From the IMG/VR virus record IMGVR_UViG_3300047558_000238, positions 1 through 64,000 of that record: 64,000 nt of DNA, one strand, 5' to 3'. Origin of the DNA: a virus. Both the position numbers and the translations under genes were made by a program. Within the stretch, counting starts at the first letter, position 1; each line of letters starts with the position of its first letter. Positions 8,894-28,288 of this stretch are shown piece after piece. Under the pieces are notes generated by a model. It searched no databases and had not been told where the DNA came from. It saw only the letters and a program-made list of their open reading frames with translations.

Positions 8894-11728
8894 ATGTCTG
8901 ACATCCTTCTTGCCCTTCTAGCTGCCGACGGTAACTCAGCCGCGGCTCGTAGAGCCCGCGTAGCGCTTCAGCCTCGAGACAAGTACGGCCGCTGGGTCAC
9001 TACTGGAGCTCGACTATTCGCTAGCCTAGACCTTGGCAATGGTGCCTTTGGTAAGGTAAAGGGCCGCGCTATTGGTGGTACTAATAAAAAGGGCGAAATC
9101 CGTATGCTCGTGGGCAAGGGCTACGAGAAGTTCGGCATCCCTGAGAACACTGTACTGACAGTTAAGTCAACTAACGGTGAGCTATTTGCTGCAACTCTTG
9201 ATGCAGACTTCCTAAAGAAGAAGGGTATCGACCCTAACCTAAAGCACGCGCTACCTAAGGCTCTAGAGAACCAGCCTCAGACTCTGGCTTCGATGGACCC
9301 TCAGCCAGCTGACGCGCTTGACATTGATCTTGCTACAAACGGTCTTAGCGACGCTGAAGACAAGGAGCTCCGTAAGGAGCGTGACCAGGAGCCTCTAGCT
9401 AAGCTCCCGCCTGCAATGGAAGTTGCAGAAGGTCAGCAGGTTAAGGACATCGTTGAGTCTGCAGAAGCTGGCACACCAACTCCTGAAGCAACTCCTGAGG
9501 CTGAGACTCCTGTAGAAAAAGCAACTCTAGCTCCTGCCAGTTCTGCAGATGACGCTATTGCAAATGCACTTGCCAAGGTAGCTCTAGGTTACGATGCTCC
9601 AAACCTTGACACTCTGATTCAGGCAGCTCAGACTCCTGGAGCTAAGCCTAAGCTAATCAACACATCAATCAAGGACATTAAGGCTGGAGATATTATTCAG
9701 CTAACCCCTGTTAAGGGCGCTCCACCGGTTGACTATCGAGTTGTAAGCAATGCTCCTAGAACTACGCTAAATGGCGATACTGTATACGACCTTAAGATTG
9801 ATGACAATGGTCGAGTAGCTACTGTAATGAAGAACGGTATTGGTCCTCAATACTCGATTGGTCGCTACGATATTCCAGCCAAGCCAGCCGCTGCTCCTGC
9901 AGCAACTGCGCCTGCTAAGTCAGCCAAGCCAGCCAAGCCAGCCAAGCCAGCCAAGCCAGCCAAGCCAGCTGCTAATGCCCCTGCAGCTCCAGCTGCTCCA
10001 GCGGCTCCTGCAGCTGACGGCTCAGCTGCACTCACTCCTAAGAAGAAGGTGACTACTGGAACAAAGAAGCCTAAGAATCAGGCAATCCAGGCAGCACTTG
10101 CTAAGGGCCGCAAGGACGATGGTAAGGACATTACTCCAGACCCACTAAAGGGTCTAGATGACTACCGCAATAAGATAATCACTCCACTCTTTGATGAGAA
10201 TGGAAAGCCACTTCTTACTGGTAAGAAGGATGACAAGGGCAACCCGATTGCAGTTGAAGATCCAGACGCAATTGTCAATGCCCTTCTTGAAGAGAACCCT
10301 CAGGCAAAGGTTGACAAGGATGGCGCAATCATCCTTGAGCGTGGAGACTACACAGACGCTGATGGCACTGCCTTCAAGTATGAGGTAGCTGTCCAGAAGA
10401 CCCACGACAACAAGTTCATGGAGCGATACAGCTTCATCAATGCTGCAACTGGTGATCGCCAGGACTTCTACCACTACGACTACAAGGATAGCTTCAAGGG
10501 TATCTACGGAGAAAAGAACGGTGTAATGGTCTTTAGAGACCAGCTACTTGGTAAGTCGACTCCTGGAAACCCTAACAGCCCTGAAATCCAGAAGTGGTTT
10601 GGAAAGTACACCTCGCTAGAGCGTCGTATTCGCTACTTCCGTAACAAGTCAGGTGTTGGCAAGCAGATCGATGACCAGACTCTTGCTGAAGCAAAGAACA
10701 TGAAGCTCCTCACTCCTGATGAGGTAATCCGTAAGTACCTACACGGTAGACCTAGAACCCTTAACCGCAACGGTACTGTTGACCAGAAGTTCCTACAAAG
10801 CTTCTGGGAAATCCTAGATCAGGATGCATCAGCAACTAACCCTCAGGCTCTTGAGGCAATGGTACAGCTACTAGGTAGACTACCTGACAATGACAACTCA
10901 AGAGGTCTACTGATCTCTAACCTGAGAAAGACTATTGCTACCCGCTATGCAGGTAAGCCTGGTGCTCAGAAGCTAGCAACATTTGCTAAGAACATCGAAG
11001 TTCAGATCATGAATGGTGACTTCGACCTTCGCGACATCCAGCGCCGCCCATGGGCATCGCGTGATGGTAGAACAATCATCGAGCGTGGCGACAAGGTTCG
11101 CTACTATAACAACGAAGGTGAGACTTCTGTCGGTACAGTTCTTGGCTTGAACCCTTCAGTAGCAGGGTATGACGACACTGTTCGTATTCGCTTTGCTAAC
11201 GGAGTTGTATCTAACATTCTTGCAGCTAAGTACTTGGACCGTTTGACTGGCACTGATGAGGAAGATACTCCAGCATCTAAGTACATACCATCACTGAGAG
11301 GCGATGCTATGCGTGCTGCCCGTGGTGTTGTAGTCACACCAGGAGCACCTGCAGGTAAGGCTAAGTCTGAGAGAAATAGCAGCAACCCTAGCGTTGACTT
11401 TGGAGATAAGTCGAGACAGCAGGATGACGGCACTGATGGTCAGTCTTCTGACGTAGCAGATCCATACCTAGGAAACTCCGGTGCACCTGCTGATCAGGCT
11501 CCTGCCGCAGATGCCACTCCAGCAGCTCCAGTCGGAAACGTAGTACTGCTAGACACTGGAGACGCCTTCTATGGTCCTGATGGTAGCTACCTAGGTACAG
11601 TTGTAGAGACCATTGAAGTTGAAGCTAAGGATGGCGGAGAGCCTGGACTAGCTGTCTACTACATGGATGAAAATGGCGACGAGCACTACGACGTTCTAGA
11701 GAAGAGCGAGAACCGCGGCCCAAAATAA
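8894..11728 (+). CDS. Large putative internal head protein; short form of a -1 frameshift fusion
   Basis: SD GAGGA, N-terminal QPRDKYGRWV motif, Pro/Ala linkers; ends C CCA AAA TAA. Confidence 0.8.
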   Translation: MSDILLALLAADGNSAAARRARVALQPRDKYGRWVTTGARLFASLDLGNGAFGKVKGRAIGGTNKKGEIRMLVGKGYEKFGIPENTVLTVKSTNGELFAATLDADFLKKKGIDPNLKHALPKALENQPQTLASMDPQPADALDIDLATNGLSDAEDKELRKERDQEPLAKLPPAMEVAEGQQVKDIVESAEAGTPTPEATPEAETPVEKATLAPASSADDAIANALAKVALGYDAPNLDTLIQAAQTPGAKPKLINTSIKDIKAGDIIQLTPVKGAPPVDYRVVSNAPRTTLNGDTVYDLKIDDNGRVATVMKNGIGPQYSIGRYDIPAKPAAAPAATAPAKSAKPAKPAKPAKPAKPAANAPAAPAAPAAPAADGSAALTPKKKVTTGTKKPKNQAIQAALAKGRKDDGKDITPDPLKGLDDYRNKIITPLFDENGKPLLTGKKDDKGNPIAVEDPDAIVNALLEENPQAKVDKDGAIILERGDYTDADGTAFKYEVAVQKTHDNKFMERYSFINAATGDRQDFYHYDYKDSFKGIYGEKNGVMVFRDQLLGKSTPGNPNSPEIQKWFGKYTSLERRIRYFRNKSGVGKQIDDQTLAEAKNMKLLTPDEVIRKYLHGRPRTLNRNGTVDQKFLQSFWEILDQDASATNPQALEAMVQLLGRLPDNDNSRGLLISNLRKTIATRYAGKPGAQKLATFAKNIEVQIMNGDFDLRDIQRRPWASRDGRTIIERGDKVRYYNNEGETSVGTVLGLNPSVAGYDDTVRIRFANGVVSNILAAKYLDRLTGTDEEDTPASKYIPSLRGDAMRAARGVVVTPGAPAGKAKSERNSSNPSVDFGDKSRQQDDGTDGQSSDVADPYLGNSGAPADQAPAADATPAAPVGNVVLLDTGDAFYGPDGSYLGTVVETIEVEAKDGGEPGLAVYYMDENGDEHYDVLEKSENRGPK
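9921..9969 (+). repeat. 9-nt tandem repeat (CAGCCAAGC x5) encoding a PAK linker
   Basis: Seen directly in the sequence. Confidence 0.9.
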
Positions 11729-11773
11729 ATAGGGCTGCGGTACCGTCGACTCCAAACGACGGAACTTCAGCCC
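11719..11773 (+). promoter_or_regulatory. Programmed -1 frameshift signal (CCCAAAA plus hairpin)
   Basis: In-frame C CCA AAA, 6-nt spacer, GGGCTG/CAGCCC and CCGTCG/CGACGG stem; -1 frame open to 14733. Confidence 0.8.
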
Positions 11774-14733
11774 AGGCTCCTGCGGCAACTGTTAAGAGCA
11801 CTAGCGGTCGTGAGTTTGATACTAGTGCACTACGCGCACCTAGAAAAGTAGGTCCAGGTAGACCACCAAAGGTCATTAACCCACCTGATATGAAGCCACT
11901 TGAAGACCTCAAGAAGGCTATCTATGACAGCATTCCTGGAAACCATGACTCAGACAAGTTGAATAATCTTATCGATGCAGCAAAGGCTGCTCGAGAGGGT
12001 AACGATGAGCCAGCATATGTTAAGGCACTATTAGACCTAACTACCTTCCACAAGGATAGTTTTGCCGATGACGAGACGTACACTCCTCTCTCAGTTAAGG
12101 GCGACTCTTTCCTAGAGAAGAAGAGCGTGGCAATCATCACCGCCAGAACTCAGAAGTACGCTAGATCAGGTAACAAGCCTCAGACTGTAGCGGACGTACT
12201 AAAAGAGTCAGAGCGTTCACTGCGTAACAGACTGCCAAATATTTCGGCACTATTCGCAACCCATACTGGATGGGATGTCATCGGTCCTAGCCGTGAATCG
12301 CAGCGCCTCCAGGCCGAGTTCTCTGAGATCTACAAGAAGCTAGGAGCTTCAGACTCAGAGGCGTCATACAAGGCAATGACTAGCACCACTAAGGAGCTAA
12401 ACCGTCGCCGTGATGATGTTAACGCTGCAGTAATCACCGTTAAGAATGCTGGATCGAACAACGAAATCTATGTCCACATGGATGCAGACTCGTACGACCC
12501 AACTGACCCTAATGCTGGCTACATGCCTAAGGCTACTCAGGCTGACATCGACAATACAATCGACGCCATGAGAACTGCCACTAAGGGTGGTCTGTTCAAG
12601 GACCGCGTAGTAGTTCACTTATTGCCAGAAGCCTACAAAGTACCTAATTCAGACGGCTCTAGTGAGAAGAATACAGCAGCTTTTACCTATGACGGCTCTG
12701 ATCACATCTTTGCATTCGTAGATCGAATTAACGCACTTCCTGGCTCTACAGCAGCTCCAGCTGATTGGTGGTCAACAGATATTGTTGACTCTAAGACAGC
12801 ATATGGTCACATCATTTCGCACGAAGTTGGTCACCTACTAAAGAACAAGCTATATGGTGCCAAGAGCGGTAAGTCAGAGACTGACTTCAATACTGATGTT
12901 GAAAACTTCTCTGCTGGAAAGTACACTCCTGTAGCTACCCCTGAAGCTGCAACCTCTAAGAGCTCAATAAACATTGACCCTGTAGCTGATCTAGGTATCG
13001 ATACTGACGGCATTGTAAAATCTAAGACCACTGCTGGCTCGGACCTATCAGGCCAGACATTGACTAGACAGCTGGGCTCTAACCCAGGCGGGTTTACAAC
13101 TGACCCTACTACTGGCGAGACAGTCTACGTTAAGGTGCAAAAGAGCGAGCTACATGCTCAGAATGAGACTCTAGCTGCAGCATTCTATGCTAAAGCTGGT
13201 CTGATGTCTGCCGATACTCGACTAGGCACTAAAGATGGTCAGGTAATTACTTACGCACCGAATATCCCTAACGCTCAGACTGGTATCGACTATAGCGATA
13301 AGGGCTTCATCGAGAAGCTACAGAAGGGCTATGCAATGGACGCTCTTCTAGCTAACTGGGATAGCATGGCAAACGATGCCAATATCATGCGCGACATGAG
13401 CGGTAATCCTATCTGGATTGACCCAGGCGGCTCGCTACTGTTCAGAGCTCAGGGTGCTCGTAAGACCAACTTTGGTGATACTGTATCTGAACTTGACAGC
13501 CTAATCACTTCTACTTCTACTGGAACTAGAGTGTATGGTTCGATGACACCTCAGCAGAAGACTGACAGTGCAAAGCTAGTACAGCAGATTACTCATGCTG
13601 ATATCGACATTCTAGTTAATGGAATCATTACAGATCCAGTTGAAGCCAAGCGCCTGAGAGATACTCTCAAGAACCGTCGAGACTATATCCTTAAGCGTTT
13701 CAACCTAGAACTAGATCTAGATAAGGCGAGAGCAGATGCTCATGCTAGAAGTAACCAAGCTACTCCGACGAAGACTTCCACTAAGCTAGGAACCCCTAGC
13801 GGCAAGCCAGAACCAGTGAGCGGCCGTGGCACTGAAGACTTTGACGAGAACTTCGCCGAGCTGTATGCAAGATTTGTTCAAACTGATGATGAAGTTCCTC
13901 AGTGGTTTGTTGATCTTCTTGCAAGCCACGGCATCTCGAAGAGAACTGCTAGTAAGCTGTGGAGAGCTAACCACTCTGCAGAGGTACAGCACCTTCATGA
14001 TCAAATTGACAAGATGCTAGACCCTACCTTCCTCGGTGAGTTTAGCCAGCTTCGCGCTCAGAACCCTGGCATGCGTCAAAGTATTTATGGTCAAATGATT
14101 GCAAAGCTAAATGGCACCGATGGCGAAAAGCCAGAAGTAGTCAAGACACTAGACTCTAAGAAAGCTACAGTCTATCGTGGAGTTCACTCGGATAGTCATA
14201 GAAGAGGTAGCGCTGCTGCTAAGGCAGAGGTTGCTAAATTTAGAGATGAGTTTATAAATGGACTCATAGCTTATATGTCTAATACGACTGTGTACGGTAG
14301 CGGAACCTACTCCTCTACAAATAAGTCAACATCTCTGAGCTACTCCAATGGCGAGTCAGATCATGACCACCTATGGCAGATGAACATTAAGCCAGGTGCA
14401 AAGCTAGTAACATATGGTGGCCAGAGCAATATCGATCCAACGTTCCCGGACTTTACAGGAACCATCGATACCCTCAAGCGCAGCATGAAGTCGACACTCG
14501 CAGAGCGCGTTCAAAACGAGATGTTCCCCGACCTTGACACTACTGACCCTCAGGTAGTAGCCGAGGTGGACCGTCTTATGAAGGAGCTTCCACTAAGTGT
14601 TGGTGACTCTACCTCTAATATTGCTGGACTATTGGGCTATGATGGGGTAGAGTTGGTCATGGGCCGAGAAAGCTATGTGATTTACTTCAACCGAGGTATC
14701 TTCCAGATCCTTGACCCAGGGACAACCCCGTAG
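11725..14733 (+). CDS. Multi-domain effector: zinc metallopeptidase + HipA/PI3K-like kinase + ADP-ribosyltransferase-like; probable frameshift extension of 8894
   Basis: HEVGH...ENFAE; LGSNPGG/VYVK/NE/NWD..N/IDPG; VYRG..YGSGTYSS..GYDGV. Frame is open from the slippery site, upstream of the 11890 ATG. Confidence 0.7.
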   Translation: MNRAAVPSTPNDGTSAQAPAATVKSTSGREFDTSALRAPRKVGPGRPPKVINPPDMKPLEDLKKAIYDSIPGNHDSDKLNNLIDAAKAAREGNDEPAYVKALLDLTTFHKDSFADDETYTPLSVKGDSFLEKKSVAIITARTQKYARSGNKPQTVADVLKESERSLRNRLPNISALFATHTGWDVIGPSRESQRLQAEFSEIYKKLGASDSEASYKAMTSTTKELNRRRDDVNAAVITVKNAGSNNEIYVHMDADSYDPTDPNAGYMPKATQADIDNTIDAMRTATKGGLFKDRVVVHLLPEAYKVPNSDGSSEKNTAAFTYDGSDHIFAFVDRINALPGSTAAPADWWSTDIVDSKTAYGHIISHEVGHLLKNKLYGAKSGKSETDFNTDVENFSAGKYTPVATPEAATSKSSINIDPVADLGIDTDGIVKSKTTAGSDLSGQTLTRQLGSNPGGFTTDPTTGETVYVKVQKSELHAQNETLAAAFYAKAGLMSADTRLGTKDGQVITYAPNIPNAQTGIDYSDKGFIEKLQKGYAMDALLANWDSMANDANIMRDMSGNPIWIDPGGSLLFRAQGARKTNFGDTVSELDSLITSTSTGTRVYGSMTPQQKTDSAKLVQQITHADIDILVNGIITDPVEAKRLRDTLKNRRDYILKRFNLELDLDKARADAHARSNQATPTKTSTKLGTPSGKPEPVSGRGTEDFDENFAELYARFVQTDDEVPQWFVDLLASHGISKRTASKLWRANHSAEVQHLHDQIDKMLDPTFLGEFSQLRAQNPGMRQSIYGQMIAKLNGTDGEKPEVVKTLDSKKATVYRGVHSDSHRRGSAAAKAEVAKFRDEFINGLIAYMSNTTVYGSGTYSSTNKSTSLSYSNGESDHDHLWQMNIKPGAKLVTYGGQSNIDPTFPDFTGTIDTLKRSMKSTLAERVQNEMFPDLDTTDPQVVAEVDRLMKELPLSVGDSTSNIAGLLGYDGVELVMGRESYVIYFNRGIFQILDPGTTP

Positions 14734-15662: not shown

Positions 15663-17795
15663 ATGAACTTCTTGGGCTCTTCCGAGAGATTTGCACTTTT
15701 TTCCCTCGATGGATACACGGTAGCTGTAGATATCGAGGCTAATGCAATTGCAGAGGTCACCAGCTCTGCAGTTTTAGCATCCCTAGAAGGATCCCTAAGC
15801 AAGGAAGAAGTTAGCGAAGCTGTCGCTAATACCGCTAGACAGGCACTAGAGTCCGTCATTGCCGCAGCGAATGAGACAGACCGCATGTACACTATCCCCG
15901 GTGGGGTTCAGGCAGAAGCTAAGAAAGCACTAGCTTGGCGCAAGGAACACCGTCGCGGTGGAACTCCTGTAGGCATTAATACTGCCCGCACTCTTGCAAA
16001 GGGTGGCCAGATTGGCATCAAGAAGATTCGCCACATTGCCAAGTATTTCCCTCGTCACGAGGTGGATAAGCAGGGCAAGGGCTGGAAGCCTGGAACATCT
16101 GCATTCCCGTCAAATGGCCGCATCGCCTGGGCACTTTGGGGTGGAGATGCCGCATGGCGCTGGGCAGAAGCTATCGTAGAGCGCGAGAATAAGAAGGTGC
16201 TCACTGCTAGTGGCTACGATACCGTCGAGCTAACATCCGTAGATAGCCCTTCATACTCATCTGAAGTTAGCCCTTTCAAGATTGCTCATGAACTAGACAT
16301 CAATGCTGGTCCAGAATTTATGGCTAGAGTCCGCATGGATGGTTCTGGGATCGATCGACTCTACAAGATTGATATCGATGGTCGTGTATTTGTCTGGGAC
16401 GACTGCGGCTGGGACACTCTAGGCCACGTTGATGGCGATGTTTATACCTACGATGCTGCACTAGATGATCCGTACGACATGGTCGAAAAAGATTATGTGA
16501 TTATTGATCCTAGTTCGGCAGTAATTATTTCTGCATTTATGCAGGAGCGCCCATTCCAGCCAGTATCTATCGATGAGATTGACCCAGAAGAGGCATCAAT
16601 CGTATACGACGGGCTAGCTGACGAGGACTTCACGCTAGTGGATCGAGTTCTTCTTGCTGCTGGCCCTGCAGGGTCTGCTTCAGATGCTCCAACCTCAGAT
16701 GGTCAGTACACTCCTGAAGAGCGAGCTAAGAATGTTAAGGCTCAGCCTAGAGATGCTCGCGGTCTATTTGTCAAGGTAGGTGCTAGAACTATAGTTGGCG
16801 GTGACCCAGTACGCGGTCAGGGAACTATCTCAGCTATCAATGAGGATAAAGGCACTGTATCAGTACGTCTAGACAATGGTAGAACTGTAGAAGTTGACCC
16901 TAAGCACACTAAGGCTCCAGGTCTAGGCCTTAAGAGCGGGCAGAACTTAGTGCCTAGCCAGGAAGACTATCCACTAGATATGTCTGGCATTATTGGTGAG
17001 CCTAGAACTCCACACAACCAGCCAAAGGCGCATCTGCCTGGCACCTTAAAGCCTCTAACCGACAAAGAGATCAACCTTATGGTCTCAAACTTCCCTAAGT
17101 ATGTCCAGCAGATGCGTGCATCATACAAGGCAAAGGATGCAGCAGACAAGGCTAGAGTCCAAAAGAAGTGGGGCAAGGATGTCGGAAGCGACTTCAGCAT
17201 CACTGCTGCTGCCACTGAAGAAGAGGCTCTAACCCCTAAGACTTCAGATGTCCCTGCGAAATACCTAGCAATCGTATCGCCAGACGATAAGTCAGCTGTA
17301 ATGGATGTTGTTGCAATTGTCCCTAAGACTGTGACTACCACTGAGCCAATGCTATATGAGCGCAAAGATGGCAAGTGGGTAGCCAACGAGCAGATTCTAG
17401 GTGACCTAAAGTCAGCAACCCCACCTCCAGTAGTTGAGCTGGACGAGAAGGAGGTACTAAATGATGTACTCCTTCAGGTGGACGATAAGGTAGGCGTAAC
17501 TGCTTCAGCTAACTTAGACTTCAGCCAGTTCTGGAGCACTGTAGTCGAGCCTCTTCTTTCAGCAGGCGGTCTAGATCACAACCGTGGCAACGCAGAAAAG
17601 CTTCGCCGCTACTGGGTCCACGGAGAAGGCGCTGCCAAGATTCGTTGGGGTCAGCCAGGTGACTGGAAGCGCTGCGTTAAGCATCTATATAAGTACATTG
17701 GTCCAAGAGCTAAGGGCTATTGCCAGCTTCGTCACAAGGAAGCTCTAGGCTACTACACCTCAACACACGCTAAAAAGGATCGCAATAATGGCTAA
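15663..17795 (+). CDS. Multi-domain head-associated protein
   Basis: IAWALWGGDAA domain, QPRDARGLFV motif, C-terminal domain duplicated in the next gene. Confidence 0.75.
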   Translation: MNFLGSSERFALFSLDGYTVAVDIEANAIAEVTSSAVLASLEGSLSKEEVSEAVANTARQALESVIAAANETDRMYTIPGGVQAEAKKALAWRKEHRRGGTPVGINTARTLAKGGQIGIKKIRHIAKYFPRHEVDKQGKGWKPGTSAFPSNGRIAWALWGGDAAWRWAEAIVERENKKVLTASGYDTVELTSVDSPSYSSEVSPFKIAHELDINAGPEFMARVRMDGSGIDRLYKIDIDGRVFVWDDCGWDTLGHVDGDVYTYDAALDDPYDMVEKDYVIIDPSSAVIISAFMQERPFQPVSIDEIDPEEASIVYDGLADEDFTLVDRVLLAAGPAGSASDAPTSDGQYTPEERAKNVKAQPRDARGLFVKVGARTIVGGDPVRGQGTISAINEDKGTVSVRLDNGRTVEVDPKHTKAPGLGLKSGQNLVPSQEDYPLDMSGIIGEPRTPHNQPKAHLPGTLKPLTDKEINLMVSNFPKYVQQMRASYKAKDAADKARVQKKWGKDVGSDFSITAAATEEEALTPKTSDVPAKYLAIVSPDDKSAVMDVVAIVPKTVTTTEPMLYERKDGKWVANEQILGDLKSATPPPVVELDEKEVLNDVLLQVDDKVGVTASANLDFSQFWSTVVEPLLSAGGLDHNRGNAEKLRRYWVHGEGAAKIRWGQPGDWKRCVKHLYKYIGPRAKGYCQLRHKEALGYYTSTHAKKDRNNG

Positions 17796-20700
17796 TGAAG
17801 AGTTTATGATGGAAGAAGTTTGGGGCGAAAATATCGGTACACCTACAGAAGTCACCGATGAAGATATGCTTATGCCAATCGAGGACATTCTCGATGAGGT
17901 AGATGACTTATATGAGGACTCATGGGCTCCAGACGAGGAGACATGTAAGAATCTAGAAGATCTGGCAGAGTGCACTGATGAGGAGTTTGCACTACTTGCA
18001 GCCGGTGGCCTTGACCGCAACCGTGGCAATGCTGAGCAGCTCAGACAGTACTGGACCAGAGGAGAAGGCGCTCTTAAGATTCGTTGGGGAACTCCTGGCG
18101 ACTGGACCCGTTGCGTTCGTCAGCTTTCGAAGTACATGGGCCCTCGTGCAAAGGGATACTGCCAGCTTCGTCACAAGGAAGCTACCGGTCTTTACACTGG
18201 AAGCAAATTCAATCCTGGAAATAGAGACTCTCTAACTTCGTCACTGTTTGCGTCTGAAGACGAGATGGTGGATAAACTCATTACGAAGAGCGCCCTTACC
18301 GCTAGAGCTAACGATGCTAAGGCTAAGTTTGGTCTAGTTGCCGCTGCTCCACTGGCAGCTGAAGGCGCTAAGTTCCGTATTCCTCTCCTAATCCCGGAGC
18401 AGCTAGAGTCTGGCGATGGTCGTAGCTTTAAGAGAGATGCTATCTCTATTCGAGAGCTCCCTCTACCTCTACTATGGCAGATTAAAACTGGTGACGGTCA
18501 CGCTGGCTCAGTTGTAGTTGGTCGAATTGACTATGTAGAGCGTACTGAACAGGGCATCGGAAATGCTTATGGCGTATTTGATACTGGTGTATACGGGCAA
18601 GAAGCCGAGAGATTAGTGCGTAACGGATTCCTCCGTGGAGTTTCTGCTGACCTAGACCAGTTCCAGGCTACTGAAGAGAAGCAGCCAAAGAAGGCTGAAG
18701 CTTCAGATCTAGAAAATGCAGGCGAGATTGGCAAGGATAAGCTTGTAGTAAATAAGGCACGTGTAATGGCTGCTACAATTGTAGCTAAGCCTGCATTTCA
18801 AGAGTGCACTATTTCTATTGAAGAATCTGGGGACCAGGAGGAAACTATGACCCCTAACGACGGTATTTACGAGGAGTCAGTGGACTTCAGCACCGTCGAA
18901 CCGATTACTGCCTCTGGATTCCTTTCAGAAGAGATTCCGGTTACTCCTCCTCAGGAGTGGTTCGAAAACCCTAAGCTAACTAAAGCTACTCCACTTACTA
19001 TTGAGCCAGATGGTCGTATCTATGGCCACATTGCCGCATGGCACGTGAATCACATCGGCATGCCTCGCTCAACTCGTCCTCCACGCTCTAAGAGCAAGTA
19101 TGCTTACTTCCACACTGGCGTTGTTCGTACCGACTCTGGCAAGGACATCCCTGTTGGTCAGCTAACCCTAGCTGGTGGACACGCTGACTTACGTGCAAGT
19201 GCAGCCCAGGCTGCTAAGCACTACGATGACACCGCATCTGCTATTGCTGATGTTCACGCTGGTGAAGACGAGTATGGAATCTGGGTAGCAGGCTCACTAA
19301 GACCAACCGCTACCGAAATGCAGATTCGCGCTCTTCGTGCTTCCGCTCCTTCAGGTGACTGGCGTCCAATCAACGGCTCGCTTGAGCTGGTTGCAGTGTG
19401 CCAGGTAAATGTTCCAGGATTCCCGATTGCCCGTGCTCTTGTTGCTTCTGGCAAGGTTATGTCTCTGGTTGCAGCTGGAGCTAGCTTCCTAGCCATGATG
19501 AAGAGCGATGCTGTAACCCACTTTGCTGTTAAGGCTCAGGAGCTTGGCGAACTAGCTACATCTACTCCAGACTTGAAGGACCGCGTAAAGGCCAAGAAGG
19601 CTAACATGCGTAAGTTTGCTATCGAATCTGCAGCTACCAAGGTAGAAGACATGCGTCATCGTGCTCTTGTTGCATCTGCAGTTGCTGAGCTTGCAAAGTT
19701 CTCGGATGAAGAACGCGCTAAGCTCGCTGAGACTGGCGAAGCTCTTCCAGATGGCTCATACCCAATCCGCAACGAGCAGGATCTAAAGAATGCAATTCAC
19801 GCATACGGAAGATCTACTCCTAAGGACCGTGCAAAGGTTCGCACTCACATTCGTAAGCGTGCTAAGGCTTTGGGTCTTGCAGCACTTGTTCCTGAAGAGT
19901 GGAAGGCTGCAGCCTCTATCGAAGCTGCTACCTCTGTAGCTCAGATGCGTGCTTCTATTACTGCTGCGCTAATTGCTTCTGCATCAGCATCAGCAGAGCC
20001 TGCTGAAATGGTTCTCCTAGATACAGTGGAGCTATCAAGCGATGACTATTTGTCTACAATCATCGAGAACAACGCTCAGGACTCTGACCCAAAAGCATCT
20101 AGCTACCCAGCTGTAACTGCTGCACTACCTGCAGAAAGCGAGTTCGCTGAGGTAGCTAAAGATCAGATCTCTGATGTAGAGCTAGAGAAGCTTCGTAAGG
20201 CAAAAGAAGAAGCCGATAAGCAGACTGAAGATCAGATTAAACTAGCAGAAGACATTAAAGCTGGTAAAACTACAGTTCAAGACTTGTACGACGAAAAAGG
20301 TCGTCAGAAGTATGTATCTGGAGTGAACCAGCCTCGTGATGCTAAGGGTAAGTACCGTAAGGTTCTAGCCAGACTTAAGCAAGACCTAGGTGTTGCTGGT
20401 CTTCAGAAGGCTCTAAAGAAGGTAGAAGACGCTGAGAACATGGATTTTGCGGGTAACTATGCAGAATCTGCTAAGGCCAGCGAAGAACTTCTTGGAATGA
20501 TTGACCGTCTAGATGCTAAGGCACTTAACCCTAAGGCGCTAGAGAATGTTAAAGCTACTGCAGCTGAACTAGGCAAGGTAATCTCAAACCTACCTTTGCC
20601 TTTCGGTGAAGATGCAGAAAAAGTTAGATTTAGCGATCTACCAGCGGGACTCAAGGATCTCATCGACTCGATGATTACTAGAGTCGAAGCAAAGATCGGT

Positions 20701-20817
20701 AAAAAGGATGCAGATGTTGCCACTCAAAATCTGCGTTCATTTATGTCTGGAGCAGACGTTTATTCTCAGGGCGAAGTTCAATCTGAGATGAGCAAATTGC
20801 TCCGACTCCTTACCTAA
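17788..20817 (+). CDS. Capsid maturation protease, multi-domain
   Basis: LPLLWQ..GHAGSVVVGRI..GVSAD..ATIVAKPAF core; GHIAAW..SGDWR..VNVPGFP second domain; directly upstream of the capsid gene. Confidence 0.8.
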   Translation: MANEEFMMEEVWGENIGTPTEVTDEDMLMPIEDILDEVDDLYEDSWAPDEETCKNLEDLAECTDEEFALLAAGGLDRNRGNAEQLRQYWTRGEGALKIRWGTPGDWTRCVRQLSKYMGPRAKGYCQLRHKEATGLYTGSKFNPGNRDSLTSSLFASEDEMVDKLITKSALTARANDAKAKFGLVAAAPLAAEGAKFRIPLLIPEQLESGDGRSFKRDAISIRELPLPLLWQIKTGDGHAGSVVVGRIDYVERTEQGIGNAYGVFDTGVYGQEAERLVRNGFLRGVSADLDQFQATEEKQPKKAEASDLENAGEIGKDKLVVNKARVMAATIVAKPAFQECTISIEESGDQEETMTPNDGIYEESVDFSTVEPITASGFLSEEIPVTPPQEWFENPKLTKATPLTIEPDGRIYGHIAAWHVNHIGMPRSTRPPRSKSKYAYFHTGVVRTDSGKDIPVGQLTLAGGHADLRASAAQAAKHYDDTASAIADVHAGEDEYGIWVAGSLRPTATEMQIRALRASAPSGDWRPINGSLELVAVCQVNVPGFPIARALVASGKVMSLVAAGASFLAMMKSDAVTHFAVKAQELGELATSTPDLKDRVKAKKANMRKFAIESAATKVEDMRHRALVASAVAELAKFSDEERAKLAETGEALPDGSYPIRNEQDLKNAIHAYGRSTPKDRAKVRTHIRKRAKALGLAALVPEEWKAAASIEAATSVAQMRASITAALIASASASAEPAEMVLLDTVELSSDDYLSTIIENNAQDSDPKASSYPAVTAALPAESEFAEVAKDQISDVELEKLRKAKEEADKQTEDQIKLAEDIKAGKTTVQDLYDEKGRQKYVSGVNQPRDAKGKYRKVLARLKQDLGVAGLQKALKKVEDAENMDFAGNYAESAKASEELLGMIDRLDAKALNPKALENVKATAAELGKVISNLPLPFGEDAEKVRFSDLPAGLKDLIDSMITRVEAKIGKKDADVATQNLRSFMSGADVYSQGEVQSEMSKLLRLLT
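20088..20158 (+). promoter_or_regulatory. Second candidate -1 frameshift signal (CCCAAAA plus hairpin), truncating
   Basis: In-frame C CCA AAA, 5-nt spacer, TAGCTACCCAGC / GCTG-A-GGTAGCTA stem; -1 frame stops at TAG 20100. Confidence 0.55.
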
Positions 20818-27535: not shown

Positions 27536-27593
27536 AATAGAAGTGCTGCTAAATGGCAGCCTATCAATAAGCGCAGAAAGACATACATAGAAT

Positions 27594-27929
27594 ATGACTA
27601 AATTCAGAGACTTTGGTTCAGGCCCAGACCTAACCAACGTAGAGCCAATCTCGTTCTCTATCCATGGCGAGACATTCGAATGTGTCAAGGCCGTTCAGGG
27701 TAAGGTACTCCTAGAGCTAGTAGCTAAGTCTAAGTCAGATGACCCTAGCGAAGCAGCTTCTACCATTGACAACTTCTTCTCTCAGGTTCTGACCGATGAG
27801 AGTTACGCAAGATTTGATGCACTACTACTAGACAAGAACCGCGTTGTTACTGTAGAAAGCCTTGGTGAGATTTCTGGCTGGCTAGTAGAGCAGTTCAGTG
27901 ACCGCCCGGAAGAGCAGCCAGAGGCTTAG
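27594..27929 (+). CDS. Tail assembly chaperone (G)
   Basis: Two genes before the tape measure; ends with candidate slip site CCCGGAA. Confidence 0.8.
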   Translation: MTKFRDFGSGPDLTNVEPISFSIHGETFECVKAVQGKVLLELVAKSKSDDPSEAASTIDNFFSQVLTDESYARFDALLLDKNRVVTVESLGEISGWLVEQFSDRPEEQPEA

Positions 27930-28288
27930 CTGAGTGGGCTATTGACCTCTGGCCATATGTAAACGGAAAAGCTTTGACATCTGGAATCAACCTAAAAGAA
28001 GCGACAATGTCGGACATGCTTGACATTGTCCACTTCTTTTTTGAGGAAGATTCTAGGTATGGCTCTCAAGAAGAAGTCGAGTCTGTCAGTGCTGTTCGTA
28101 GCCAGATATACGAGACTTTGTATGGAGTTCCATATGCATACAAAGTTAAGTCTGGCGGCAAGACTAGATCTACTACCACTAGTGACATCCCAGATGTAGA
28201 TGAAGTTAAGCCGTATATACCTCCAACGGAGTTTGATCCAGGATCATCAAACCCTTTTGGAGCCGTCCTCGAAGCACCGCTTCGATAA
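27902..28288 (+). CDS. Tail assembly chaperone extension (T), reached by -1 frameshift
   Basis: -1 frame open from 27902 (TGA at 27899): ..GLAEWAIDLWPYVNGKALTSG.. Confidence 0.75.
   Translation, partial: PPGRAARGLAEWAIDLWPYVNGKALTSGINLKEATMSDMLDIVHFFFEEDSRYGSQEEVESVSAVRSQIYETLYGVPYAYKVKSGGKTRSTTTSDIPDVDEVKPYIPPTEFDPGSSNPFGAVLEAPLR

What the first reader, a model, noticed from the sequence alone, without database searches (positions are those of the whole stretch)
20088..20158. Same CCCAAAA-plus-hairpin signal inside the protease gene, acting as a truncation switch
Seen: GAC CCA AAA in frame at codons 767-769, a 5-nt spacer, then a stem TAGCTACC-CAGC (20100-11) / GCTG-A-GGTAGCTA (20146-58) with an inner CTGCA/TGCAG hairpin. 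The -1 frame stops at once (..DPKSI*, 771 aa), removing the ~240-aa C-terminal domain that carries the third QPRD motif. Inference: one recoding signal is used in opposite senses, extension at 11719 and truncation here (as in dnaX tau/gamma), to set head-protein stoichiometry. An ORF finder cannot see this.
Basis: partly seen in the sequence, partly recalled or inferred. Interest (0 to 1): 0.8.

Follow-up and report, generated by a model that had tools for sequence, protein, structure and literature searches.

The report
Conserved frameshift site in phage protease
A slippery CCCAAAA sequence followed by an RNA hairpin inside a freshwater phage's head-maturation protease gene is very probably a real programmed -1 ribosomal frameshift site, because related phages keep it letter for letter and three of them can only make the protein's tail domain by shifting frame at exactly this heptamer.

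Summary
C_CCA_AAA lies in the 0 frame at 20088-20094 of the 1009-aa head-maturation protease gene. The -1 frame reads PKSI then TAG (771 aa). A 12-bp-stem hairpin starts 5 nt downstream.

From the window alone this could be chance: the heptamer is not enriched, and about 1.6 such heptamer-plus-hairpin pairs are expected. Comparison with relatives changes that.

- Two other lineages of the same linker type keep the heptamer and the 5' arm unchanged. One of them (L004) also shows the 3' arm, and every change there preserves pairing.
- In 13 more distant in-frame relatives the domain boundary carries the same C_CCA_AAA. All wobble positions are invariant, although AAA and GCC/GGC are minority codons.
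- In three relatives (two lineages) the conserved C-terminal domain sits in the -1 frame from exactly this heptamer. It has no start codon and dN/dS is 0.04-0.10.
- The window's second site (11719) has the same heptamer, a stop and a covarying hairpin in two distant relatives.

Best reading: a dnaX-like truncating frameshift makes a protease isoform without the QPRD-bearing helical C-domain. No RNA or protein data exist, and the shift efficiency and the short form's role are inferred. I found no published case in a prohead protease gene.

The parts
17788..20817 (+). Head-maturation protease gene. The 0-frame product is the 1009-aa long isoform: protease core about 200-650, variable linker about 711-790, conserved helical C-terminal domain about 792-1009.
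   Evidence: ORF list and translation. PHROG 859/18402 head-maturation protease hits, E 3e-91 and 2e-62. Linker variability.
20088..20094 (+). Slippery heptamer C_CCA_AAA in the 0 frame (Pro768-Lys769), the proposed -1 shift site.
   Evidence: Sequence. Unchanged in L004 and in two Logan contig types. The same heptamer is invariant at the domain boundary in 16 IMG/VR relatives.
20100..20102 (+). TAG stop in the -1 frame. The shifted product ends ...DPKSI (771 aa).
   Evidence: Sequence. The same -1 stop is present in L004.
20100..20158 (+). Downstream stimulatory hairpin: outer stem 20100-20111 / 20146-20158 (bulged A20150), AACU/AGUU stem, and apical CTGCA/TGCAG hairpin at 20120-20134. It lies 5 nt after the heptamer.
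   Evidence: MFE -25.7 kcal/mol, z -2.95. The L004 homologue folds at -28.9, z -3.85, with the same outer stem and a different apical stem. 22 shared pairs, 3 one-sided changes that all keep pairing, none broken.
20161..20814 (+). Conserved C-terminal domain removed by the shift. It is all-alpha and carries the invariant QPRD motif at 20329-20340. In many relatives it is a separate 175-258-aa gene immediately upstream of the major capsid gene.
   Evidence: Alignment A3, 70-80% identity, QPRD invariant. AlphaFold model all-helical, pLDDT 64.5. Separate-gene forms. Motif positions.
11719..11773 (+). Second site with the same heptamer: C_CCA_AAA (11719-25), TAA stop (11726-28), 3 further nt to the stem (6 nt in all between heptamer and hairpin), hairpin 11732-11773. 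A -1 shift fuses ORF 8894-11728 to the frame of ORF 11890-14733.
   Evidence: Hairpin -25.9 kcal/mol, z -6.85. Heptamer, stop and hairpin are conserved at the same ORF junction in L104 and L105, and 7 of 14 pairs covary.

Best explanation
The site at 20088 is a functional programmed -1 ribosomal frameshift signal.

Proposed mechanism: with tRNA-Pro on CCA in the P site and tRNA-Lys on AAA in the A site, ribosomes are held up by the hairpin that starts 5 nt downstream. A fraction of them slip back one base onto CCC AAA. They then read Ser-Ile and stop at TAG 20100-20102.

Two isoforms result:
- The 1009-aa long form, which carries the helical, QPRD-bearing C-terminal domain. This domain looks like a scaffold or capsid-docking module by gene position, size and fold class.
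- A 771-aa short form, which is the protease plus linker only.

The same boundary site exists in a clade of related freshwater phages in both polarities. Where the C-domain is in frame, the shift truncates. Where it is in the -1 frame, the shift is required to add it. Both polarities yield the same pair of products.

Shown here: the anatomy, conservation at synonymous sites, C-domains encoded in the -1 frame under purifying selection, and a second conserved CCCAAAA-plus-hairpin site in the same genome.

Inferred: that shifting occurs in this gene, its efficiency, and the roles of the two isoforms.
For: 1. Anatomy. The heptamer is in the correct register, the spacer is 5 nt, and the hairpin folds at -25.7 kcal/mol with z -2.95.

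2. Heptamer class. C_CC.A_AA.R belongs to the high-efficiency class V_VV.A_AA.R in E. coli, and C_CC.A_AA.G reached 54% with a pseudoknot (Sharma et al. 2014, PMC4066793).

3. Relatives with the same linker type.
- L004 is 80.6% identical over 8 kb. The 40 codons upstream of the site are only 30% identical at the amino-acid level.
- L004 nevertheless keeps GACCCAAAAGCATCTAGCTACCC and GAGTTCGCTGAGGTAGCTAA exactly.
- The loop differs by a 6-nt deletion, yet an apical stem re-forms.
- A third lineage (Logan contig X4 record 8) has unrelated upstream codons but keeps 20084-20115 with the same single change.

4. More distant relatives with the C-domain in frame.
- All 12 'VVAA[AG]PK' relatives, L043 (TPK) and L094 have C_CCA_AAA in the 0 frame at the linker/C-domain boundary.
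- Codon usage in these genes is CCA 49%, AAA 30%, GCC 14% and GGC 29%. Given the amino acids, the heptamer is therefore expected in about 2-4% of lineages.
- The relatives fall into about 10 clusters that differ at about 48% of same-residue codons.
- Invariant wobble positions form one block from -18 to +6.
- L021 keeps the residues VVAAAP but has lost both the heptamer and the upstream GTGGTGG (GTA GTA GCT GCT GCT CCT GTC). The constraint is therefore on the RNA, not the protein.

5. Relatives with the C-domain in the -1 frame.
- In L061 and in L062/L072 (73-76% nt identity between the two lineages, three assemblies) the 0 frame stops 10 codons after PK. The full C-domain of 222-225 codons, ending in the same ...LLRLLT, continues in the -1 frame from the heptamer.
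- dN/dS is 0.04-0.10 with dS saturated.
- The first possible start codon in that frame is 174-291 nt downstream, inside conserved sequence and without a Shine-Dalgarno sequence.

6. The second site at 11719 uses the same heptamer with a stop and a hairpin (z -6.85). It is conserved at the same ORF junction in two distant relatives, and 7 of 14 pairs covary.

7. Protease-only and C-domain-only proteins occur naturally. Many relatives, including phage DSL-LC01, encode the C-domain as a separate gene.
Against: - Window-only statistics fit chance.
- The predefined wobble test against L004 gives only p about 0.03-0.09 (10 of 11 unchanged; background 0.59-0.68). The arms also encode conserved peptide motifs (SSYP, EFAEVA), so amino-acid selection could explain part of the signal.
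- Only two or three lineages of this linker type could be read as DNA. The contigs of P0002, P0003 and P0006 were not obtainable.
- The hairpin shows no double compensatory substitution.
- The window's heptamer lies 63 nt further from the 'EISD' start of the C-domain than in the other clade, so positional homology is uncertain.
- 25 of 43 relatives with a recognisable boundary have no slippery heptamer there, so the shift is not essential to the family.
- The SD-like element upstream in the window is weak and only 6 nt away, which is not the 10-14 nt spacing of dnaX.
- If shifting is inefficient, the two polarities would give opposite isoform ratios. This is puzzling unless efficiency is near one half.
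- There are no transcript, ribosome-profiling or protein data.
Confidence: 0.72

Rival explanations
1. Coincidence plus protein-level constraint. The in-frame CCCAAAA and the hairpin in the window do nothing to translation. They are conserved in L004 because the peptide motifs DPKASSYP and EFAEVA are selected, for example as a protease cleavage or docking motif.
For: Window-only statistics fit chance. The wobble test against L004 is only p about 0.03-0.09. Motifs similar to (S)Y..L...AEFAE recur at the amino-acid level in relatives without the heptamer. Runs of 7 or more identical codons are not rare overall (17 in 1234 codons).
Against: This does not explain why the same heptamer is fixed against codon bias at the same domain boundary in about 10 other clusters, or why three relatives need it to reach the C-domain. 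It also does not explain why the same heptamer with a hairpin is a conserved junction signal at 11719 in this genome. Every change in the arms keeps pairing, and the apical stem re-forms after a 6-nt deletion.
Confidence: 0.18
2. The conserved nucleotide island is a DNA- or RNA-level element with another role. It could be a short homology block where modules recombine between phages (a mosaic joint at the protease/C-domain boundary), or an RNA processing or pausing site. The heptamer would be incidental.
For: The island sits exactly at a module boundary in a family with very fluid architecture: fused, split and polyprotein forms. The C-terminal 120 codons cluster differently from the rest of the gene (for example L061 with L042), which suggests recombination.
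Against: A recombination joint does not require the 0-frame register of X_XXY_YYZ in every member. It also does not explain full-length C-domains in the -1 frame, without start codons, under strong purifying selection. The window-type and the other clade share only the heptamer and not the flanks.
Confidence: 0.06
3. The -1 arrangements in relatives are dead genes or assembly errors. The in-frame heptamers would then be an inherited relic with no present function.
For: All evidence comes from metagenome assemblies. L062 and L072 come from one sample.
Against: There are three assemblies and two lineages with dS above 1.6, yet the C-domain stays open for 222-225 codons with dN/dS 0.04-0.10. The indel is not inside a homopolymer. 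The shifted product restores the family consensus AAPK-x-EEISD exactly. A relic would not keep eight wobble positions invariant across about 10 clusters.
Confidence: 0.04

Closest known systems
E. coli dnaX tau/gamma programmed -1 frameshift
   Same: The -1 shift on a heptamer ending in a Lys codon leads to a stop within a few codons, giving a C-terminally truncated isoform that lacks a protein-interaction domain. A stem-loop lies 5-6 nt downstream. In the related clade there is a conserved upstream G-rich SD-like block (GAGGYGGTGGTGG, -20 to -8).
   Different: The heptamer is C_CCA_AAA, not A_AAA_AAG. The gene is a phage head protease, not a polymerase subunit. In the window the SD-like AGGA is only 6 nt upstream. 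Orthologues exist in which the same site extends rather than truncates; I know of no such case for dnaX (own knowledge).
Phage tail assembly chaperone G/GT frameshift (lambda-like; Xu, Hendrix and Duda 2004)
   Same: A conserved -1 frameshift in a phage structural module that sets the ratio of a short and a long protein sharing an N-terminus.
   Different: G/GT always extends and lies in the tail module. The site here is in the head protease gene and truncates in the window. The window's own chaperone pair (27591-27929 / 27902-28288) overlaps in the -1 frame but has no canonical heptamer.
Nested protease-scaffold genes (lambda C/Nu3, Mu I/Z, P2 gpO; own knowledge)
   Same: An N-terminal protease and a C-terminal helical scaffold-like module lie in one reading frame directly upstream of the major capsid gene. 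Two products share sequence.
   Different: Those systems make the second product by internal initiation or autoproteolysis, giving a scaffold-only protein. Here no in-frame start with a Shine-Dalgarno sequence precedes the C-domain, and the second product is the protease without the C-domain, made by recoding.
IS3/IS911 orfAB and T7 gene 10A/10B -1 frameshifts
   Same: An X_XXY_YYZ heptamer with a downstream structure. This extension type is like the 11719 site and like the L061/L062/L072 arrangement. C_CC.A_AA.G is the most efficient motif measured in the IS3 context (PMC4066793).
   Different: Unrelated genes and functions. The Z base here is A rather than G, and it is invariant although AAG is the preferred Lys codon (70%).

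Membership tests
Programmed -1 ribosomal frameshift site | X_XXY_YYZ heptamer in the 0-frame register | tested here: met
   GAC CCA AAA at 20086-20094. The register is the same in all 13 in-frame relatives, L004 and the three -1 relatives.
Programmed -1 ribosomal frameshift site | Stimulatory RNA structure 5-9 nt downstream | tested here: met
   The hairpin starts 5 nt downstream: -25.7 kcal/mol, z -2.95 in the window and -28.9, z -3.85 in L004. In the other clade there is only a weak 6-bp stem with one compensatory pair.
Programmed -1 ribosomal frameshift site | Conservation of the signal at synonymous positions in relatives | tested here: met
   Wobble positions -18 to +6 are invariant in 12 in-frame relatives, against codon bias. 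Window versus L004: 10 of 11 wobble positions unchanged. A third lineage also keeps the block.
Programmed -1 ribosomal frameshift site | Alternative frame encodes a selected product reachable only by the shift | tested here: met
   Met in relatives L061, L062 and L072: a 222-225-codon C-domain in the -1 frame, dN/dS 0.04-0.10, no start codon. In the window itself the -1 frame only adds SI and a stop.
Programmed -1 ribosomal frameshift site | Two protein products observed, or shifting measured | not testable with these tools
   No RNA run holds the stretch, and no proteomics or reporter data are available.
dnaX-type tripartite signal | Shine-Dalgarno-like element 10-14 nt upstream of the heptamer | tested here: not met
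   Window: AGGA at -10 to -7 (6-nt gap). L004: AGGAGG with a 4-nt gap. In the other clade GAGGYG ends 14 nt upstream and GGTGG 7-10 nt upstream, which is compatible but untested.
Phage head-maturation (prohead) protease | Significant profile match to protease families and a position between the portal-side genes and the major capsid gene | tested here: met
   phrog_859 at 3e-91 and phrog_18402 at 2e-62 over residues 204-635. The major head protein gene (phrog_777) lies directly downstream. Annotated as capsid maturation protease in DSL-LC01. Catalytic residues were not examined.
Lambda C/Nu3-type nested protease-scaffold | Internal in-frame start producing the C-terminal module alone | tested here: not met
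   There is no ATG or GTG, and only one TTG without a Shine-Dalgarno sequence, between residue 771 and the QPRD motif. The C-domain fold has no match to solved or viral predicted structures.

The most novel reading that the evidence does not exclude
One -1 frameshift site at the protease/C-domain boundary works at an intermediate efficiency, around one half. A single-base indel just downstream can then flip which frame holds the C-domain without much change in isoform ratio. This would make it a 'polarity-switching' recoding site: orthologous genes use the same heptamer either to truncate or to extend. In this phage it would work together with the 11719 site to decide how many protease and cargo molecules carry the QPRD capsid-docking tag.
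Probability: 0.3. Interest if true: 0.8.

Novelty: new variant of a known kind. Interest (0 to 1): 0.68.

Why it matters
- Frameshifting in tailed phages is textbook for tail chaperones and a few capsid genes. I found no report of it in a head-maturation protease or scaffold gene. The 2016 recoding review (PMC5009743, first 300,000 characters) does not contain 'prohead protease', 'scaffold' or 'head maturation', and three further full-text searches returned only tail-chaperone cases.
- If real, gene callers mis-describe this abundant freshwater phage family. They miss the short isoform in fused genes. In the -1 members they call a truncated protease plus a C-domain gene with a false late start (for example P0158, 167 aa, on L072's contig).
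- Natural orthologues in both polarities, together with split-gene relatives, give a ready-made comparative system. It could be used to ask how frameshift efficiency is tuned and how protease, scaffold-like domain and capsid cargo stoichiometry are set.
- The invariance of AAA, the minor Lys codon, rather than AAG hints at rules for slippery sites in hosts that have both tRNA-Lys species.

Tried and rejected
The DNA of the closest protein relatives P0002, P0003 and P0006, which share DPKASSYP, could not be read.
- The search for related loci with the single protein found nothing in IMG/VR.
- Degenerate DPKASSYP patterns gave only chance hits in IMG/VR (L002), in genome contigs (L005-L007, unrelated taxa, not followed) and one in metagenomes (L003). 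L004 was the one true relative found this way.
- No RNA holder was listed among the sequencing runs. The contigs laid added one new lineage but only part of the hairpin.
- Pfam gave no hit for any of seven head-region proteins.
- The C-domain has no convincing PHROG hit (best E 0.006) and no fold match in PDB or BFVD. The AlphaFold model has only moderate confidence (pLDDT 64.5), so 'scaffold-like' rests on gene position, size and helicity only.
- The tail-chaperone overlap was checked for use of the same heptamer. It does not use it.
- DSL-LC01 shows no homology across the 11719 junction.
- No tRNA genes were found in the window.
- Searching the literature for the heptamer string itself gave nothing relevant.
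- I rejected transcriptional slippage as the mechanism: a run of four A is too short (own knowledge).
- I rejected internal initiation of the C-domain: there is no suitable start codon.
Full report
**What is there**

The window is part of a 107-kb IMG/VR virus record. Its head module resembles those of actinobacteriophages, and its nearest GenBank relative is the freshwater Actinomycetia phage DSL-LC01.

The gene at 17788-20817 encodes 1009 aa. Residues 204-635 match head-maturation protease families (phrog_859 at 3e-91, phrog_18402 at 2e-62). The major head protein gene follows directly.

Codons 767-769 are GAC CCA AAA, so C_CCA_AAA (20088-20094) is in the slippery X_XXY_YYZ register. The -1 frame gives Pro-Lys-Ser-Ile and TAG at 20100-20102, a 771-aa product.

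Five nucleotides after the heptamer a hairpin begins. Its arms are 20100-20111 and 20146-20158, with an apical CTGCA/TGCAG stem. It folds at -25.5 to -25.7 kcal/mol with z -2.5 to -2.95.

**Chance**

The window alone cannot carry the claim.
- CCCAAAA occurs 5 times against 6.1 expected.
- There are 33 in-frame slippery heptamers in the + strand ORFs.
- About 5% of 75-nt stretches fold this well, so one or two such coincidences are expected.

**Relatives with the same linker**

The protease has over a thousand homologues in metagenomes. The segment around residue 769 is a variable linker, and the DPKASSYP motif is present only in the four closest proteins.

A degenerate pattern search recovered one true relative, L004. 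It is 80.6% identical over 8 kb.
- The 40 codons upstream of the site are only 30% identical in protein. Even so, the block GACCCAAAAGCATCTAGCTACCC and the 3' arm block GAGTTCGCTGAGGTAGCTAA are identical.
The one change (20109 A to G) keeps a G-U pair. This gives p about 0.03-0.09 against the background of 0.59-0.68.
- The loop carries a 6-nt deletion, yet L004 folds into the same outer stem with a new apical stem (-28.9 kcal/mol, z -3.85). All 22 shared pairs are kept.

Logan contigs from other freshwater samples add a third lineage. Its upstream codons are unrelated, but it keeps 20084-20115 with the same single change.

This is suggestive. It is not decisive, because the arms also encode conserved peptides.

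**The wider family**

An alignment-based scan of IMG/VR gave 80 relatives. In 43 of them the start of the conserved C-terminal domain (EISD...ADKQT) could be anchored.

Sixteen of these 43 carry CCCAAAA just upstream of that start.
- In 13 the C-domain is in frame (12 'VVAA[AG]PK' members and L043), and the heptamer is in the 0-frame register every time. The -1 frame stops after 4-15 codons. L094, found by the pattern scan, is a further in-frame member.
- In these genes CCA is 49% of Pro codons, AAA only 30% of Lys codons, GCC 14% of Ala and GGC 29% of Gly. The heptamer is therefore expected in 2-4% of lineages that have these residues.
- The loci fall into about 10 clusters that differ at about 48% of same-residue codons.
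- Invariant wobble positions form one block from -18 to +6, GAGGYGGTGGTGGCTGCYGS-CCCAAAA-G.
- L021 is a natural control. It keeps the residues VVAAAP but has lost both the heptamer and the upstream G-rich block (GTA GTA GCT GCT GCT CCT GTC). The constraint is therefore on the RNA.

**Three relatives that need the shift**

This is the strongest evidence. In L061, and in L062/L072 (two lineages, 73-76% nucleotide identity, three assemblies), the protease frame reads ...GCC GCC CCA AAA GTG ... and stops 10 codons later. The whole C-domain of 222-225 codons continues in the -1 frame from exactly the heptamer, down to the family's ...LLRLLT end.
- The -1 product reads AAPK-S-[DE]EISD, matching the family consensus in length.
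- dN/dS of these C-domains is 0.04-0.10, with synonymous sites saturated between the lineages.
- The first possible start codon in that frame lies 174-291 nt downstream, inside conserved sequence and without a ribosome-binding site.

These phages can make the C-domain only by a -1 shift at C_CCA_AAA. The same heptamer at the same boundary is thus used to extend in some orthologues and, by inference, to truncate in the in-frame ones. Both arrangements give the same two products.

**The other site in this genome**

At 11719 the 0 frame reads GGC CCA AAA TAA. The -1 frame is open into the next ORF. A hairpin with z -6.85 starts 6 nt after the heptamer.

Two complete relatives were checked. Their ORF1 is 56% and 43% identical to the window's, and their ORF2 37% and 31%. 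Both have CCCAAAA, an immediate stop, the same spacer and a GGGCUG/CAGCCC-closed hairpin at the same junction. The inner stems differ, and 7 of 14 pairs show compensatory changes.

This phage group therefore demonstrably, by comparative criteria, uses C_CCA_AAA plus a hairpin as a -1 signal. That raises the prior for the look-alike at 20088.

In E. coli, V_VV.A_AA.R heptamers are in the most efficient class (PMC4066793). The fixed AAA makes sense if the host also has a tRNA-Lys(CUU) that would anchor AAG. This last point is inference.

**What the two isoforms may do**

The C-domain is 70-80% identical across relatives and has an invariant QPRD motif. It is predicted to be all-helical at moderate confidence, and no fold match was found.

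In DSL-LC01 and many metagenomic relatives it is a separate 175-258-aa gene just upstream of the major capsid gene. That is the usual place of a scaffold gene.

QPRDxxGx[WFY] also occurs near the N-terminus of the 944-aa protein at 8969 and in the 710-aa protein at 16743.

A reasonable reading is that this domain docks proteins in the procapsid. The 771-aa form would then correspond to the stand-alone protease of the split-gene relatives. This part is inference. The efficiency of shifting and the role of the short form are unknown.

**Weaknesses**

- Few sequences of the window's own linker type are available.
- The window's hairpin shows no double compensatory substitution.
- The window's heptamer is 63 nt further from EISD than in the other clade.
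- 25 of the 43 anchored relatives have no slippery site at the boundary.
- The upstream SD-like element in the window is weak and too close to count as dnaX-like.
- No expression data exist.

**Verdict**

I put about 0.7 on a functional truncating frameshift in this gene, and about 0.9 on programmed frameshifting at this boundary in the family.

It is a new variant of a known mechanism. The gene context has not been reported, as far as I could find. The unusual feature is that orthologues use the site in both polarities.

Noticed in passing
window 11719-11773; L104:2864-2925 (-); L105:1501-1562 (+): The 11719 junction (CCCAAAA, a stop, and a hairpin closed by GGGCUG/CAGCCC) is conserved in two complete relatives, with different and compensating inner stems. 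This looks like a strong extension-type -1 frameshift that fuses the QPRD-tagged 944-aa protein to the downstream multi-enzyme ORF.
   Followed up: partly
window 27591-27929 and 27902-28288: The likely tail assembly chaperone pair upstream of the tape measure gene overlaps in the -1 frame over only 28 nt (GAC CGC CCG GAA GAG CAG CCA GAG GCT TAG). There is no canonical X_XXY_YYZ heptamer, and C_CCG is the only slippery-looking tetramer.
   Followed up: partly
window 15663-17795 and 17788-20817; proteins P0003-P0120: Most relatives fuse the upstream 710-aa protein and the protease into one ORF of 1420-1730 aa. In the window the two overlap by 8 nt with an ordinary coupled start. A roughly 70-aa module (phrog_6439) is present both at the C-terminus of the 710-aa protein and at residues 79-141 of the protease. 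The family looks like a head polyprotein that is split at different places in different phages.
   Followed up: no
L001 (DSL-LC01) 13913-14342; L061 5600-5700; linkers of L024, L027, L029, L031: Linkers between the protease core and the C-domain carry different small Cys motifs (DCGCEL; CANCILYEGGSSCK...C; NPCWDGY...NCVP) in different relatives. These may be small metal-binding inserts.
   Followed up: no
alignment A2 columns 13-27 (relatives L012-L072): The upstream block GAGGYGGTGGTGG co-occurs with the heptamer. It is SD-like (GAGGUG and GGUG match the 16S 3' end) and also fits a two-tetrad G-quadruplex pattern (GG-N-GG-N-GG-N-GG). RNAalifold pairs part of it with GCYGCC about 95 nt downstream. 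Which of these, if any, stimulates shifting is open.
   Followed up: partly
window 8969, 16743, 20329: QPRDxxGx[WFY] occurs in exactly three + strand head-region proteins. It is invariant in the protease C-domain family. It is a candidate capsid-targeting or cleavage motif.
   Followed up: partly
L042 versus L061 (C-terminal 120 codons): The C-domain end of L061, a -1 frame member, is nearly identical at synonymous sites to that of the in-frame member L042. The rest of the gene is only about 75% identical to the other -1 members. This hints at recombination at or near the frameshift site.
   Followed up: no
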